From Escherichia coli (lineage in GTDB: Bacteria > Pseudomonadota > Gammaproteobacteria > Enterobacterales > Enterobacteriaceae): 64,000 nucleotides of DNA. The notes below the pieces were generated by a model. It had not been told where the DNA came from. It was given only the letters and a program-made list of their open reading frames with translations, and ran no database searches. Below, piece after piece: positions 1,951 to 5,892 of the stretch; within the stretch, counting starts at the first letter, position 1, and every line of letters begins with the position of its first letter. A program made the position numbers and the translations under genes. Where the stretch lies: assembly GCF_030013595.1 (NCBI RefSeq), contig NZ_CP122768.1. The stretch is one strand, 5' to 3'.

Positions 1951-2025
1951 GGGTCAGTCGTATAAAGGTCATTACGGAAGGCTGTTAACCTTCTTATCGT
2001 GGTTCGAGTCCACGCTGTCCCGCCA
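1951..2025 (+). tRNA. tRNA-like gene, anticodon GUU (Asn), with one acceptor-stem mismatch; possibly degenerate
   Basis: Hand-folded cloverleaf: anticodon stem gaagg/ccttc with loop ctgttaa, T-arm cgtgg-ttcgagt-ccacg, 3' ctgtccc-g-CCA; T:T mismatch at acceptor pair 4:69. Confidence 0.5.
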
Positions 2026-2030
2026 AATAT

Positions 2031-2106
2031 GCTGGTTTAGCTCCAATGGTAGAGCGGTCGCCTTGTAAGCGAATGGGTAGCGGTTCAAGTCCGTTAACCA
2101 GCACCA
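2031..2106 (+). tRNA. tRNA-Thr (anticodon UGU)
   Basis: Hand-folded cloverleaf: acceptor gctggtt/aaccagc, D-stem gctc/gagc, anticodon loop cttgtaa, T-loop ttcaagt, discriminator A plus CCA. Confidence 0.7.
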
Positions 2107-2348: not shown

Positions 2349-2672
2349 ATGAAGATGCCAGAAAAACATGACCTGTTAGCCGCCATTCTCGCGGCAAAGG
2401 AACAAGGCATCGGGGCAATCCTTGCGTTTGCAATGGCGTACCTTCGCGGCAGATATAATGGCGGTGCGTTTACAAAAACAGTAATCGACGCAACGATGTG
2501 CGCCATTATCGCCTGGTTCATTCGTGACCTTCTCGACTTCGCCGGACTAAGTAGCAATCTCGCTTATATAACGAGCGTGTTTATCGGCTACATCGGTACT
2601 GACTCGATTGGTTCGCTTATCAAACGCTTCGCTGCTAAAAAAGCCGGAGTAGAAGATGGTGGAAATCAATAA
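2349..2672 (+). CDS. S: Holin/antiholin S (class I holin)
   Basis: 107 aa; dual-start [10 protein letters not shown]...; sequence recalled as near-identical to lambda S. Confidence 0.9.
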
Positions 2673-3132
2673 TCAACGTAAGGCGTTCCTCGATATGCTG
2701 GCGTGGTCAGAGGGAACTGATAACGGACGGCAGAAAACCAGAAATCATGGTTATGACGTCATTGTAGGCGGAGAGCTATTCACTGATTACTCCGATCATC
2801 CTTGCAAACTTGTCACGCTAAACCCCAAACTCAAATCAACAGCAGCCGGACGTTACCAGCTTCTTTCCCGTTGGTGGGATGCCTATCGTAAGCAGCTTGG
2901 CTTGAAAGATTTCTCTCCGAAAAGCCAGGACGCAGTTGCACTGCAGCAGATTAAAGAGCGTGGCGCTTTACCTATGATTGATCGCGGTGATATCCGTCAG
3001 GCAATCGACCGTTGCAGCAATATCTGGGCTTCACTGCCGGGCGCTGGTTATGGTCAGTTCGAGCATAAGGCTGACAGCCTGATTGCAAAATTCAAAGAAG
3101 CAGGCGGAGCGGTCAGAGAGATTGAGGTATGA
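2656..3132 (+). CDS. R: Endolysin R (lambda-type lytic transglycosylase)
   Basis: 158 aa; [24 protein letters not shown]... recalled from lambda R; overlaps S stop. Confidence 0.9.
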
Positions 3133-3596
3133 GCAGAGTAACCGCGATTATCTCCGCTCTGGTTATTTGCATCATCGTCTGCCTGTCATGGGCTGTTAAT
3201 CATTACCGTGATAACGCCATCGCCTACAAAGAACAGCGAGATAAAAAAGTCAGTGAGCTGAAGCAGGCGACCGCCACCATTACTGACATGCAGCAGCGCC
3301 AGCGTTCTGCTGATGCGCTCGATGCTAAATACACGAAGGAGTTAGCTGATGCGAAAGCTGAAAATGATGCTCTTCGGCGCAAGCTTGATAATGGTGGTCG
3401 GGTGTTCGTCAAAGGAAAATGCCCTGTGCCATCCTCAGCCGAAACCTCCGGCGCCTCCGGCATGGGCAATGATGCCACCGTCGAACTCTCTCCAGTTGCT
3501 GGACGAAACGTTCTCGGTGTCCGGGACGGAATTATCCGCGACCAAACAGCACTGAGAACGCTTCAGGAATACATCAGGACGCAATGCCTTCGATGA
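3129..3596 (+). CDS. Rz: Spanin inner-membrane subunit Rz
   Basis: 155 aa; N-terminal TM segment and coiled coil; N-terminal half recalled as lambda Rz, C-terminal half divergent. Confidence 0.85.
3349..3555 (+). CDS. Rz1: Spanin outer-membrane lipoprotein Rz1, embedded in Rz in the +1 frame
   Basis: Embedded ORF with lipoprotein signal (LIMVVGC lipobox) and proline-rich region; true start may be an internal Met. Confidence 0.7.
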
Positions 3597-3769
3597 TAGC
3601 GATAATTTTACTCATCATCCTTCACATCTGGCTCTGTAGACAGGGTGGTGATCACTTCTGGAGTGAATCCAGATTAAACATCTCATTGCTGATGCTTGAA
3701 GTTGAGCATCTGGCGCGCGGTAAGGGGCTGCGTTGAGATAAGAGCCAGTCATTACAAATACCAGGATTT

Positions 3770-3796
3770 AGCCTCGCATTCGCGGGGCTTTTTTAT
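3770..3796 (+). terminator. Putative intrinsic terminator downstream of lysis genes
   Basis: Hairpin gcctcgc-att-gcggggc followed by ttttttat. Confidence 0.4.
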
Positions 3797-3941
3797 ATCT
3801 GCAACAAACGCGCTTCACACGCGCGACTTATGAACACAGAACCTTTCAGGATGACCCTTGAGGATGCCGGTTTGGTGATCGGTGCCTTTCTGTGGGCCGG
3901 AATCCTGTGTGACAAGGTTCATCACTAAAAGGTGAGCACTG

Positions 3942-4484
3942 ATGAATTATCCAACTATCGTTAACGGCATCGATTTCCGAGAACTGATTTTTGTGGCAAA
4001 CAACGATCCGGTTACAGATTCTTTTATGGTGGCAAAAGCATTTGGAAAGCTGCCGAAGAACGTGGTTCGTGACATTGAGCGAACCATAGAAGCTTGCCCT
4101 CCTGAGTTTGATACAAAGCTCAACTTTGAGCTTTGCTATAAAAACAATGAGTTACAGAATGGTAAGCCGCAAAAATTCTACCGTCTACGCAAGGATGGGT
4201 TGATGCTTTTGGTTATGTCCTACACCAAAAAAGAAGCAATGCGTATCAAAATTGCTTACATCAACGCATTTAACTGGATGTACGCCATGCTTCAGGTTGG
4301 TCATCGTCAATTTGAAGAAGAGAGAAATGCCGTAATGCTGGAGTACATGAAAGAGAAGGATGTTGCCAGCATGTCAGGTCGCCTGCTAAATCGCTGGGGC
4401 AAAATTAAGAAGCCACAGTTGCTGGCTAGAATTGAACGCCTTGAACAGCACGGGCAAACCGTAATCCCCGGACTCATCAATTAA
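3942..4484 (+). CDS. rha: Rha-family phage regulatory protein
   Basis: 180 aa; N-terminal region typical of Rha/ORF6N-type phage regulators; position between lysis and terminase genes as in P22-like phages. Confidence 0.65.
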   Translation: MNYPTIVNGIDFRELIFVANNDPVTDSFMVAKAFGKLPKNVVRDIERTIEACPPEFDTKLNFELCYKNNELQNGKPQKFYRLRKDGLMLLVMSYTKKEAMRIKIAYINAFNWMYAMLQVGHRQFEEERNAVMLEYMKEKDVASMSGRLLNRWGKIKKPQLLARIERLEQHGQTVIPGLIN

Positions 4485-4691
4485 CGGCAGTACCGCGAAA
4501 CAACCCAAGCCAGTAAGTGGGGAAATAACTGAAAGATGAACCTCCAGCCTTATGGCAAAAAAGATTCTTTGTGGTGGCGGACTGATGGAAAGACATCGGA
4601 TAGAATAAAACAGTGGCTAGGGTAGCTCCCGAAAAGCGGAATCGTCACCGCCAGCCACTGAATCTATGACGAACAACTAGACGAGGTTGAT

Positions 4692-4934
4692 ATGAGTGAA
4701 ATTGATAAAATAATAAATGGTACATGTAACTTTCAATCAATGCCGCCAGGTAGTTATGTAAAACAATGTAGTGAAATAGTTAATGGTCAGCTTGTAATGT
4801 CAAATGCAGGACGTGGAGTTTCTACGGATGAAAAAAAATCAATAAATGAAGCCCTATTAAGCATCAATGTTTTTGACTTGTTTCGCCCATCTTGGGTTAT
4901 TTTGCAAAATAGTAGTCAATTCCCACATTATTGA
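4692..4934 (+). CDS. Hypothetical small protein (low-GC moron)
   Basis: 80-aa ORF with markedly AT-rich codon usage compared with flanking phage genes; followed by a T-rich stretch. Confidence 0.45.
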   Translation: MSEIDKIINGTCNFQSMPPGSYVKQCSEIVNGQLVMSNAGRGVSTDEKKSINEALLSINVFDLFRPSWVILQNSSQFPHY

Positions 4935-5403: not shown

Positions 5404-5892
5404 ATGGCAGCACCAAAGGGCAACCGATTTTGGGAGGCCCGCAGTAGTCATGGGCGAAATCCTAAATTCGAATCGCCTGAGGCGCTGTGGGCTGCTTGTT
5501 GTGAATACTTCGAGTGGGTAGAAGCTAACCCGCTATGGGAGATGAAGGCGTTCTCGTATCAGGGTGAAGTGATACAAGAGCCTATCGCCAAGATGCGAGC
5601 GATGACCATTACCGGACTCACTCTGTTCATTGATGTGACGCTTGAAACATGGCGCACATATCGCCTGCGAGAAGATTTATCTGAAGTCGTTACGCGAGCA
5701 GAGCAGGTCATCTACGACCAGAAATTCTCTGGCGCAGCCGCTGACCTTCTCAACGCTAACATCATCGCCCGTGATTTGGGCCTCAAAGAGCAGTCGCAAG
5801 TTGAAGACGTGACACCTGATAAGGGAGATCGCGATAAGCGACGCTCTCGTATCAAGGAGCTATTCAACCGTGGAACTGGACGCGATTCTTGA
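5404..5892 (+). CDS. Terminase small subunit (P22 gp3-like)
   Basis: 162 aa; [29 protein letters not shown]... recalled as P22 gene 3 product. Confidence 0.85.
5671..5692 (+). other. Putative pac site (headful packaging initiation) inside the small terminase gene
   Basis: Sequence gaagatttatctgaagtcgtta matches my recollection of the P22 pac site, which lies within gene 3. Confidence 0.5.

What the first reader, a model, noticed from the sequence alone, without database searches (positions are those of the whole stretch)
3593..3739. Unannotated 48-aa ORF overlapping the Rz stop codon
An ATG overlapping the Rz stop (ATGA) opens a 48-codon frame ([19 protein letters not shown]...) with a strongly hydrophobic N-terminal segment. 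It lies in a ~340-bp gap between the lysis genes and rha and could be a small membrane protein or simply a chance ORF.
Basis: seen in the sequence. Interest (0 to 1): 0.2.

Follow-up and report, generated by a model that had tools for sequence, protein, structure and literature searches.

The report
Small lysis-cassette gene inside structured RNA
The short reading frame after the phage lysis gene Rz is a real, widely conserved but uncharacterised small gene for a hydrophobic peptide, and its message also folds into a conserved RNA structure that no database lists.

Summary
A second in-frame ATG at 3584, with an AGGA 4 nt upstream, gives 50 aa.

It is not a chance ORF. It matches PHROG 11822 (unknown function). 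It is annotated as a hypothetical protein in Sf6 (gene 65), epsilon34 (gp67), Kapi1 and mEp460, and in most sampled copies of the 1,961 of 5,426 complete E. coli genomes that hold the element. 44-46-aa relatives occur in Klebsiella, Raoultella and Kluyvera prophages.

The element always sits directly 3' of the last lysis gene, whatever that gene is, and keeps its start codon, usually with a Shine-Dalgarno. The hydrophobic N-terminus shows a coding signature. The middle of the peptide does not.

The 3' two-thirds of the ORF, the stop codon and 12 nt beyond it form a multi-helix RNA structure supported by compensatory changes. A terminator or a long covarying hairpin follows. Rfam, Pfam, NCBIfam, PADLOC and PDB have no match.

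Best reading: a late-expressed small membrane peptide gene, translationally coupled to Rz, embedded in a structured 3' end of the lysis mRNA. Its function is unknown.

The parts
3129..3596 (+). Rz (i-spanin), the upstream gene. Rz1 is embedded at 3349-3555. The last ~30 nt of Rz (from ~3563) belong to the conserved block that travels with the small ORF.
   Evidence: annotation of homologues; two Rz alleles diverge sharply up to ~3563 and are identical afterwards
3576..3586 (+). AGGA (3576-3579) plus the alternative start ATG 3584-3586, which gives the 50-aa form
   Evidence: PGAP and several phage records use this start
3593..3736 (+). Small ORF, 47 aa plus stop. ATG overlaps the Rz stop (ATGA). 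Hydrophobic N-terminus [15 protein letters not shown], then R, a variable middle, and C-terminal EHLARGKGLR.
   Evidence: (phrog_11822, E=8.6e-38)
3628..3748 (+). Structured RNA domain. Outer helix A is 3628-3635 with 3741-3748.
   Evidence: covariance-model score 126 bits at 3623-3754
3657..3673 (+). Hairpin B (3657-3662 with 3668-3673). It lies in the part of the peptide that varies freely.
   Evidence: 95.8% of cells paired; three pairs with changes on both sides (35-51: GC15, AU6, CG3, UA2)
3680..3739 (+). Helix C (3680-3685 with 3734-3739). Its 3' arm contains the UGA stop codon. It encloses hairpin D (3688-3697 with 3704-3714) and hairpin E (3715-3721 with 3727-3733).
   Evidence: helix C 96.4% paired with 3 covarying pairs; helix E 91.5% paired with 5 covarying pairs; for the individual compensated sequences
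3770..3796 (+). Intrinsic terminator (8-bp stem AGCCTCGC/GCGGGGCT plus a T-run). It marks the right end of the conserved module in this variant.
   Evidence: annotated as a Rho-independent terminator in epsilon34; homology in E. coli genomes ends at query 234-237, which is window 3793-3796

Best explanation
The frame at 3593-3736 (or 3584-3736) is a real small gene, the last gene of the lysis cassette. It is transcribed only as part of the Q-antiterminated late transcript, because the module has no room for its own promoter. Ribosomes finishing Rz translate it by stop-start overlap (ATGA) and/or the AGGA-ATG 3584 start; relatives use a strong GAGGTG or AGGTGA Shine-Dalgarno. The product is a 45-50-aa peptide. 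It has a 13-15-residue hydrophobic N-terminal helix ending in IWLCR, and it is inferred to sit in the inner membrane with a basic C-terminal tail in the cytoplasm. The RNA that encodes residues ~12-47, the stop codon and the next 12 nt folds into a conserved multi-helix domain. That domain is followed by a terminator here, or by a long covarying hairpin in other variants. I infer that this structure forms a nuclease-resistant, defined 3' end for the lysis-gene message and/or limits translation of the peptide. Shown: conservation, synteny, the coding signature of the N-terminus, and the RNA covariation. Inferred: translation, membrane location, and any role in lysis or mRNA stability.
For: - **Family and spread.** The ORF matches phrog_11822 over its full length. 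The element is in 1,961 of 5,426 complete E. coli genomes. In 38 of 40 rows spread across the ranking, a hypothetical protein is annotated under the match beside the 'lysis protein' (gene tables).
- **Relatives.** 44-46-aa relatives occur in Klebsiella, Raoultella and Kluyvera. A full HMM scan of 1.84 billion representative proteins found only 28 clusters with E <= 0.001; most are 44-50 aa.
- **Synteny.** The ORF always lies directly 3' of the last lysis gene, with gaps of -1 to +7 nt in most cases. That gene may be embedded Rz/Rz1, a DUF2514 i-spanin, a separate o-spanin, or a 58-66-aa membrane protein after the endolysin. The downstream genes differ.
- **Start signals.** The ATG is kept in all unrelated upstream contexts. 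A strong Shine-Dalgarno lies 3-7 nt upstream in most non-E. coli contexts, but is weak or absent in a few (L110, L114, L118, L128, L155).
- **Coding signature.** In the N-terminal 12 codons the synonymous fraction is 0.51 against 0.31 +/- 0.08 for column shuffles (9 of 2000). Leu codon 2 uses five Leu codons, and the Ile before W uses all three Ile codons. pN/pS is lowest in this frame among the six frames (0.64 against 0.81-1.31; N-terminus 0.29).
- **Indels.** Indels inside the ORF are 6, 3, 3 and 3 nt long.
- **RNA structure.** The window's minimum-energy fold equals the RNAalifold consensus, z = -2.98; the Klebsiella sequence gives z = -3.86. On 32 sequences, 16 pairs change on both sides against 9.1 +/- 1.5 in shuffles (0 of 500), and pair types number 54 against 42.8 (0 of 500).
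- **Downstream hairpin.** 8 of its 15 pairs have compensatory changes.
Against: - There is no direct evidence of translation or of any phenotype, and no paper mentions the family.
- Over the whole ORF the coding signature is not significant (synonymous fraction 0.337 against 0.327 null). The middle 21 codons evolve as if neutral (pN/pS 0.92).
- In divergent members the C-terminal motif changes non-conservatively (ARGKGLR to AHSKGLC in L175; L to P in L173) while RNA pairing is kept. Part of the 'protein' conservation is therefore RNA conservation.
- The hydrophobic stretch is short for a transmembrane helix. It has no positive n-region and no lipobox.
- Some copies carry nonsense, frameshift or stop-loss changes (L088, L089, L163-L166).
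- Most loci were retrieved by protein similarity, which favours intact frames.
- The AlphaFold model has low confidence (pLDDT 68).
Confidence: 0.55

Rival explanations
1. The functional unit is the RNA, not the peptide. It would be a structured cis-acting 3' element of the lysis transcript: a processing site, a stabiliser, or a processed 3'-derived RNA. Translation of the frame would be incidental, or would serve only to modulate the fold.
For: - Covariation supports helices B, C and E and the downstream hairpin.
- Invariant non-coding bases after the stop (GATAAGAGCC) are explained by pairing with ATCTCA and GGCTCT inside the ORF.
- Synonymous sites in stems are invariant.
- L175 and L173 keep the pairs at the cost of non-conservative residue changes.
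- The middle of the ORF shows no coding signature.
Against: - The N-terminal segment lies outside the structure and shows period-3 conservation, with the second-position T fixed and Leu and Ile codons freely exchanged.
- The ATG is kept in every unrelated upstream context, most with a good Shine-Dalgarno.
- Indels are multiples of three.
- Loop residues such as AAGGG are invariant, although a pure stem constraint would let them vary.
Confidence: 0.25
2. A regulatory nascent peptide or leader-type ORF. Translation, and possibly membrane engagement of the hydrophobic N-terminus, would remodel the RNA domain around the stop codon. That would set termination, processing or read-through at the border between the lysis and packaging genes.
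For: - The ORF is translationally coupled and runs through the whole structure.
- The stop codon lies inside helix C.
- ORF length is fixed at 44-47 codons, so the N-terminus would just emerge from the ribosome tunnel at termination.
- A terminator or hairpin follows 30-35 nt later.
Against: - No fixed downstream gene or Shine-Dalgarno is sequestered; the downstream genes vary.
- A terminating ribosome would not reach the terminator stem, which lies 34 nt away.
- Q-modified RNA polymerase ignores terminators (established lambda biology).
- The C-terminal motif is not strictly kept (L175).
Confidence: 0.08
3. A type-I-toxin-like element: a small toxic membrane peptide whose structured mRNA restrains translation, kept in check by an antisense RNA.
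For: The ORF encodes a small hydrophobic peptide of under 60 aa. Its mRNA is highly structured, with a long-range helix between the ORF and the post-stop sequence.
Against: - No promoter-like site was found on either strand within 3600-3800.
- The module's left edge lies ~10 nt before the ATG, so it has no promoter of its own.
- The Shine-Dalgarno and start are not sequestered by the predicted fold.
- There is no similarity to Hok, Ldr, TisB or related families.
Confidence: 0.05
4. A chance ORF in a conserved non-functional spacer, or a decaying remnant of a longer gene.
For: ORFs of this size are common by chance. Identity among E. coli copies is 95-99%, so the frame could persist passively.
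Against: The frame, its length and its start persist down to ~50% amino-acid identity in other genera and in different flanks. The N-terminal synonymous pattern also argues against chance. No longer homologue exists in 1.84 billion representative proteins.
Confidence: 0.03

Closest known systems
PHROG 11822 / Sf6 gene 65 / epsilon34 gp67 / mEp460 gp58 / Kapi1_042 / RefSeq WP_001139680 and WP_001139679 (all 'hypothetical protein')
   Same: Same family and same position right after Rz. The window's product matches the profile end to end.
   Different: Nothing differs. No member of the family has a tested function, and none of these annotations mentions an RNA structure.
Type I toxin mRNAs such as hok/sok
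   Same: Both have a small hydrophobic peptide ORF of about 50 codons embedded in a strongly folded mRNA with long-range pairing.
   Different: This element has no promoter of its own and no antisense RNA or promoter. Its start region is not occluded. It has no sequence similarity, and it sits inside a late operon, coupled to Rz.
Dual-function RNAs (SgrS/SgrT, RNAIII/delta-haemolysin, AzuCR/AzuC)
   Same: One RNA segment is under both peptide-coding and RNA-structure constraint, and the peptide is small and hydrophobic or amphipathic.
   Different: Those are independent transcripts with a base-pairing regulatory domain. Here no independent transcript, seed region or target is known.
Rz1 and other spanin or lipoprotein lysis genes (phage HF4s labels this ORF 'Rz2 o-spanin')
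   Same: It is a small gene in the lysis cassette with an N-terminal hydrophobic stretch followed by Cys.
   Different: It has no lipobox (IWLC). The Cys is replaced by Y, F, W or D in some members. The true Rz1 is embedded in Rz at 3349-3555. The HF4s label is most likely a mis-annotation.
lambda bor, the moron that occupies the slot after Rz in lambda
   Same: It occupies the same slot at the end of the lysis cassette and is flanked by mosaic boundaries and a terminator.
   Different: bor lies on the opposite strand with its own promoter and encodes a lipoprotein expressed from the prophage. This ORF is co-oriented, has no promoter and is coupled to Rz.
Inter-cistronic hairpins of phage late or early mRNAs (for example T7 RNase III sites, which leave stabilising 3' hairpins)
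   Same: Both are conserved stem-loops placed exactly between functional gene blocks of a long polycistronic phage transcript.
   Different: No cleavage has been shown here. The structure overlaps a translated frame, and it is a branched domain rather than a single irregular duplex.

Membership tests
PHROG 11822 (Sf6 gp65-like small proteins) | Full-length match to the family profile | tested here: met
   E=8.6e-38, residues 1-50 against profile positions 1-50 of 50
PHROG 11822 (Sf6 gp65-like small proteins) | Position immediately 3' of the spanin or last lysis gene | tested here: met
Protein-coding gene (in general) | Excess of synonymous over non-synonymous change in this frame | tested here: inconclusive
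   Met for the N-terminal 12 codons (9 of 2000 shuffles; pN/pS 0.29). Not met for the middle (pN/pS 0.92) or for the whole ORF (768 of 2000).
Protein-coding gene (in general) | Start codon and ribosome-binding site kept in different contexts | tested here: met
   the ATG is kept in 39 distinct upstream contexts. GAGGTG, AGGTGA or TAAGG lies 3-7 nt upstream in most non-E. coli types; the site is weak or absent in L110, L114, L118, L128 and L155. The E. coli type has the ATGA overlap plus AGGA-ATG 3584.
Outer-membrane lipoprotein / o-spanin | Lipobox [LVI][ASTVI][GAS]C with an invariant Cys | tested here: not met
   The sequence is I-W-L-C. Cys is replaced by Y, F, W or D in P0081, L109, L155 and P0105.
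Holin | Match to a holin family; usually two or more transmembrane domains; located at the head of the cassette | tested here: not met
   No Pfam or NCBIfam hit. One short hydrophobic segment. The lambda-type holin is at 2349-2672.
Type I toxin-antitoxin | Own promoter and an antisense or overlapping antitoxin RNA | tested here: not met
   no promoter-like site on either strand in 3600-3800. The module's edge lies ~10 nt before the ATG. This is only a consensus scan, so weak promoters are not excluded.
Type I toxin-antitoxin | Toxicity of the peptide | not testable with these tools
   Needs an expression experiment.
Structured RNA (conserved secondary structure) | Base pairs kept through compensatory changes beyond controls | tested here: met
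   16 pairs with double changes against 9.1 +/- 1.5 (0 of 500); pair types 54 against 42.8 (0 of 500); 88% of cells paired against 29-41% when slid. one search covers the downstream hairpin. Caveats: the structure was derived from the window's own sequence, and the sequences are related.
Any Rfam family | Covariance-model hit at E <= 1 | tested here: not met
   nothing on the + strand in 3593-3800
Intrinsic terminator | G+C-rich hairpin followed by a U-run | tested here: met
   3770-3789, 8 pairs of which 6 are G-C, followed by TTTTTTAT. Annotated as a terminator in epsilon34.
Regulatory arrest peptide (SecM, MifM or TnaC type) | Invariant C-terminal arrest motif, and a downstream gene whose expression depends on the stall | tested here: inconclusive
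   The C-terminus is conserved, but RNA pairing explains this, and L175 alters it. No fixed downstream gene. Stalling cannot be tested here.
Known prophage sRNAs (svsR; HnrS = EcOnc10-12) | Same locus and same distribution | tested here: not met
   svsR lies at the 3' end of cI (PMC12803456). HnrS is 66 nt, has three copies in Sakai and is 98% restricted to EHEC/EPEC (10.1101/2025.11.27.690950). This element has one place per O157 record listed and occurs in 36% of all complete E. coli genomes.

The most novel reading that the evidence does not exclude
The module is a previously undescribed translation-coupled RNA device that marks the boundary between the lysis and packaging genes in enterobacterial lambdoid phages. 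Translation of a membrane-targeted mini-peptide through a branched RNA domain, whose helix C contains the stop codon, would set the fate of the lysis message. That fate could be 3'-end formation, processing or stability, and it would influence the timing or level of lysis. Peptide and RNA fold would be two halves of one regulator.
Probability: 0.12. Interest if true: 0.8.

Novelty: new variant of a known kind. Interest (0 to 1): 0.42.

Why it matters
Lambdoid lysis cassettes (holin, endolysin, spanins) are among the best-studied gene sets in biology, yet this fifth, tightly coupled element is carried by prophages in about a third of complete E. coli genomes and by Sf6, HK620, CUS-3 and epsilon34, and has no assigned role. 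If the peptide or its RNA fold affects lysis timing or the stability of the lysis message, the textbook cassette is incomplete. The element is also a clean natural case of overlapping peptide and RNA-structure constraints. Intergenic-only searches for RNA motifs may overlook it, because it is often annotated as a CDS. If it has no phenotype, it remains an ordinary hypothetical small ORF.

Tried and rejected
- **Database searches with no match.** Rfam at E <= 1. Pfam, NCBIfam, PADLOC and PDB for the peptide.
- **Minus-strand ORF 3615-3752 (45 aa).** It has no family hit, and pN/pS in the reverse frames is 0.81-1.31, no lower than expected for non-coding sequence. Rejected.
- **Lipoprotein or o-spanin reading (the HF4s 'Rz2' label).** Rejected for lack of a lipobox and because the Cys is replaceable.
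- **Independent sRNA gene or type I toxin.** No promoter-like site on either strand, and the module has no room for one.
- **Identity with published prophage sRNAs.** svsR and HnrS (EcOnc10-12) differ in locus and distribution.
- **E. coli K-12.** I looked for a copy in the hope of using K-12 ribosome-profiling data. The Qin lysis region has a DUF2514-type RzpQ and gave no covariance-model hit. DLP12 and Rac were not checked.
- **Literature.** Searches on accessions and on lysis-cassette small ORFs found nothing on this family.
- **Structure prediction.** AlphaFold gave only two low-confidence helices, so no fold search was run.
- **A sigma-70 promoter from TTACAG/GATAAT in the downstream conserved flanks.** Rejected because the spacer is 22 nt. 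The flanks CAUUA and UAAUG pair with each other instead.
- **Covariance-model hit at 61632-61731 (minus strand).** 16.9 bits, E=0.025. Treated as chance.

Full report
**Observation**

The window carries the late region of a P22-like (Lederbergvirus-type) phage or prophage. The order is:
- Q-like gene, 1053-1676
- tRNA-Asn and tRNA-Thr
- lambda-type holin, 2349-2672
- endolysin, 2656-3132
- Rz, 3129-3596, with Rz1 embedded at 3349-3555
- a 345-nt gap
- rha, 3942-4484
- small terminase at 5404 and large terminase at 5870

The frame encodes [47 protein letters not shown] and stops at 3734-3736. The same frame also has an ATG at 3584, with AGGA 4 nt upstream, which gives a 50-aa form. An ORF of this size is unremarkable on its own: one search lists 79 ORFs of at least 30 aa in 7 kb.

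**It is a catalogued but uncharacterised family**

The 50-aa product matches phrog_11822 ('unknown function') end to end at E=8.6e-38. It has no Pfam, NCBIfam, PADLOC or PDB match.

The same ORF is annotated as a hypothetical protein in:
- Kapi1 (Kapi1_042, 47-aa form)
- mEp460 (gp58)
- PhiR70_1
- epsilon34 (gp67, 'similar to Sf6 gene 65', with a Rho-independent terminator annotated after it)
- RefSeq E. coli genomes (WP_001139679 and WP_001139680)

HK620 and CUS-3 leave it unannotated. HF4s labels it 'Rz2 o-spanin'.

The 271-nt query 3560-3830 matches 1,961 of 5,426 complete E. coli genomes. In 38 of 40 rows sampled across the ranking, a hypothetical protein is annotated under the match next to the 'lysis protein'.

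**It is a portable module with sharp edges**

Alignment of related loci shows two Rz alleles that differ at almost half of their positions up to about 3563. They become identical from the last ~30 nt of Rz through the ORF. To the right, homology ends at one of two points: about 3758, or about 3796 after the terminator.

**Distant relatives**

A Klebsiella phage (ST16-OXA48phi5.2) has a 45-aa ORF, MLILFILLSIWLCRLSEKPGWFKVSHIISMLALEDEHPARGKGLR. It starts 2 nt after its Rz stop and has a GAGGT Shine-Dalgarno.

Protein and locus searches then gave a family running through Klebsiella, Raoultella and Kluyvera, down to about 50% identity with the E. coli form. A full HMM scan of 1.84 billion representative proteins found only 28 clusters with E <= 0.001. 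Most are 44-50 aa and share this pattern: M, 8-12 hydrophobic residues, IWLCR..., W..., (I/V)S.L.L..E..AR.KGLR, stop. The family is narrow, confined to Enterobacteriaceae, and its length is fixed.

**Synteny**

In every context examined, the ORF lies directly 3' of the last lysis gene. The gap is -1 to +7 nt in most cases. The upstream gene varies:
- Rz with embedded Rz1 (PF03245)
- a DUF2514-type i-spanin
- a separate o-spanin lipoprotein
- a 58-66-aa membrane protein that follows the endolysin

The downstream genes vary widely and include different small terminases, rha, KilA-N and an integrase.

Where the upstream gene is not Rz, the module sometimes drags along just the last ~30 nt of an Rz gene, and these carry the Shine-Dalgarno. 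The left edge of the module is about 10 nt before the ATG. The element therefore has no promoter of its own and must be read as part of the late transcript. This last point is an inference.

**Evidence that it is translated**

- *Start signals.* The ATG is kept in all 39 distinct upstream contexts. Most non-E. coli contexts have GAGGTG, AGGTGA or TAAGG 3-7 nt upstream; a few (L110, L114, L118, L128, L155) have a weak site or none. In the E. coli type, the Rz Arg codon is CGA instead of AGG. That removes the Shine-Dalgarno but creates the ATGA overlap, and the upstream AGGA-ATG 3584 is present.
- *N-terminal codons.* In the hydrophobic N-terminus the second codon position is essentially invariant T, while the first and third positions vary. 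Leu codon 2 appears as CTG, CTA, CTC, CTT and TTG. The Ile before Trp appears as ATC, ATA and ATT. Arg appears as CGA, CGG and AGA.
- *Shuffle test.* A column-shuffle test gives a synonymous fraction of 0.51 against 0.31 +/- 0.08 for these 12 codons (9 of 2000).
- *pN/pS.* The value is 0.29 for the N-terminus and 0.64 over the whole ORF. That is the lowest of the six frames; the others are 0.81-1.31.
- *Indels.* Indels inside the frame are 6, 3, 3 and 3 nt long.

Against this, the middle 21 codons look neutral (pN/pS 0.92; synonymous fraction 0.26 against 0.33). The whole-ORF test is not significant. Some copies are broken:
- nonsense mutations in L088 and L163/L164
- a broken frame in L089
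- stop loss in L165/L166
- a 1-nt deletion near the end in L178

Most loci were retrieved by protein similarity, which favours intact frames.

**A conserved RNA structure overlaps the ORF**

Bases after the stop (TGAGATAAGAGCC) are nearly invariant across the whole family, which a protein cannot explain.

RNAalifold on 29 diverse sequences predicts a branched domain, and the window's own minimum-energy fold reproduces it (-63 kcal/mol, z = -2.98). The Klebsiella sequence gives z = -3.86. In window coordinates the helices are:
- helix A: 3628-3635 with 3741-3748
- hairpin B: 3657-3662 with 3668-3673
- helix C: 3680-3685 with 3734-3739, so its 3' arm contains the UGA stop
- hairpin D: 3688-3697 with 3704-3714
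- hairpin E: 3715-3721 with 3727-3733

I added divergent members fetched by their proteins and counted pairs on a MAFFT alignment of 32 sequences:
- 88% of cells are paired, against 29-41% when the partner is slid.
- 16 pairs change on both sides, against 9.1 +/- 1.5 in shuffles (0 of 500).
- Pair types number 54, against 42.8 (0 of 500).
- Helices B, C and E are 92-96% paired and carry 3, 3 and 5 covarying pairs.

Individual sequences make the point clearly:
- L175 keeps helix E through two compensated pairs (G-C to A-U and C-G to U-A), while the peptide changes from ARGKGLR to AHSKGLC.
- L173 turns an A/G-U pair into G-C at the cost of a Leu-to-Pro change.
- L171 and L174 compensate helix C by changing a codon (ATC to CTA) together with non-coding bases after the stop.

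Within the C-terminal codons, the sites that vary are the ones that are both synonymous or conservative and structurally neutral. That is the pattern expected under a double constraint.

Two caveats apply. The tested structure was derived from one of the aligned sequences, and the sequences are related. No Rfam family matches. A covariance model built from the alignment finds one copy in the window, at 3623-3754 with 126 bits.

**The 3' end of the module**

In the window, an intrinsic terminator at 3770-3796 follows 34 nt after the stop.

Most other variants have something else at that position. CAUUA pairs with UAAUG around a 10-bp stem, with no U-run, and 8 of the 15 pairs show compensatory changes. 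This pairing explains why homology ends exactly at 'GATAATG'.

**Interpretation**

Neither a protein alone nor an RNA alone accounts for all the data. The start signals, the period-3 pattern of the N-terminus and the in-frame indels argue for translation. The covariation, the invariant post-stop bases and the residues sacrificed to keep pairs argue for a selected fold.

My best reading (confidence about 0.55) has two parts:
- The ORF is a late-expressed small hydrophobic peptide gene, translationally coupled to the last lysis gene.
- Its message doubles as a structured 3' end of the lysis mRNA.

Membrane insertion, topology and any role in lysis or mRNA stability are inferred, not shown. AlphaFold gives only a helix at residues 2-16 and a weaker helix at 19-35 (pLDDT 68). 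The Kapi1 record notes a DeepTMHMM 'signal' call for residues 1-15.

The rivals are:
- an RNA-only element (0.25)
- a regulatory nascent-peptide device (0.08)
- a type-I-toxin-like element (0.05)
- a chance ORF (0.03)

**Comparison with what is known**

The ORF is a member of PHROG 11822, the Sf6 gp65 family. It is not any of the following:
- a lipoprotein or o-spanin: it has no lipobox and the Cys is replaceable
- a holin
- svsR, which lies at the 3' end of cI (PMC12803456)
- HnrS (EcOnc10-12), which has a different copy number and distribution (10.1101/2025.11.27.690950)

It resembles type I toxin mRNAs and dual-function RNAs in combining a small hydrophobic ORF with a folded RNA. It lacks their independent promoter and their antisense partner. 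I found no paper on the family.

**Verdict**

It is already annotated elsewhere as a hypothetical protein, so it is not a new gene. What appears to be new is the portable lysis-cassette association together with the overlapping, covariation-supported RNA structure. That lifts interest from low to moderate.

Noticed in passing
window 4610-4672 (+): Rfam match to the int-alpA RNA motif (RF02996), 42 bits against a gathering score of 35.8, E=3e-6. It lies in the spacer between rha (ends 4484) and the ORF at 4692.
   Followed up: no
window 1951-2025 and 2031-2106 (+): tRNA-Asn(GTT) and tRNA-Thr(TGT) lie between the Q-like antiterminator gene and the holin, as in phage Kapi1.
   Followed up: partly
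window 3830-3928 (+): A 32-aa ORF just upstream of rha (MNTEPFRMTLEDAGLVIGAFLWAGILCDKVHH) matches phrog_16173 (unknown function) at E=2e-23, positions 23-54 of a 63-position profile. It may be another conserved small ORF, or a truncated one.
   Followed up: no
L091 1173-1340 (Escherichia phage HF4s, MT833387): The homologue of this ORF is annotated 'Rz2 protein; o-spanin', and the Rz gene is annotated 'Rz1; i-spanin'. This is very likely a mis-annotation, since the ORF has no lipobox.
   Followed up: partly
L087 1558-1608 and 20 other variants (alignment A5): In most non-P22-like variants the window's terminator is replaced by a long hairpin without a U-run. CAUUA pairs with UAAUG around a 10-bp stem, and 8 of 15 pairs covary. 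The mosaic boundary falls exactly after GATAATG. Its role (processing site, stabiliser or atypical terminator) is unknown.
   Followed up: partly
L088 1390-1420 and L103/L137 1466-1500: Where the gene upstream of the module is not Rz, a ~30-nt remnant of the Rz 3' end (encoding QEYITTQCLR*) still precedes the small ORF. The remnant supplies its Shine-Dalgarno (GAGGTGA, formed by the Arg codon AGG and the stop TGA).
   Followed up: partly
window 3809-3825 (-): A terminator-like hairpin on the minus strand (CGCGCGTGTGAAGCGCG followed by TTTGTT) lies in the window-specific right flank, facing the plus-strand terminator at 3770-3796.
   Followed up: no
window 61632-61731 (-): A weak hit of the covariance model built here (16.9 bits, E=0.025, G+C 0.67). 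Probably chance.
   Followed up: no
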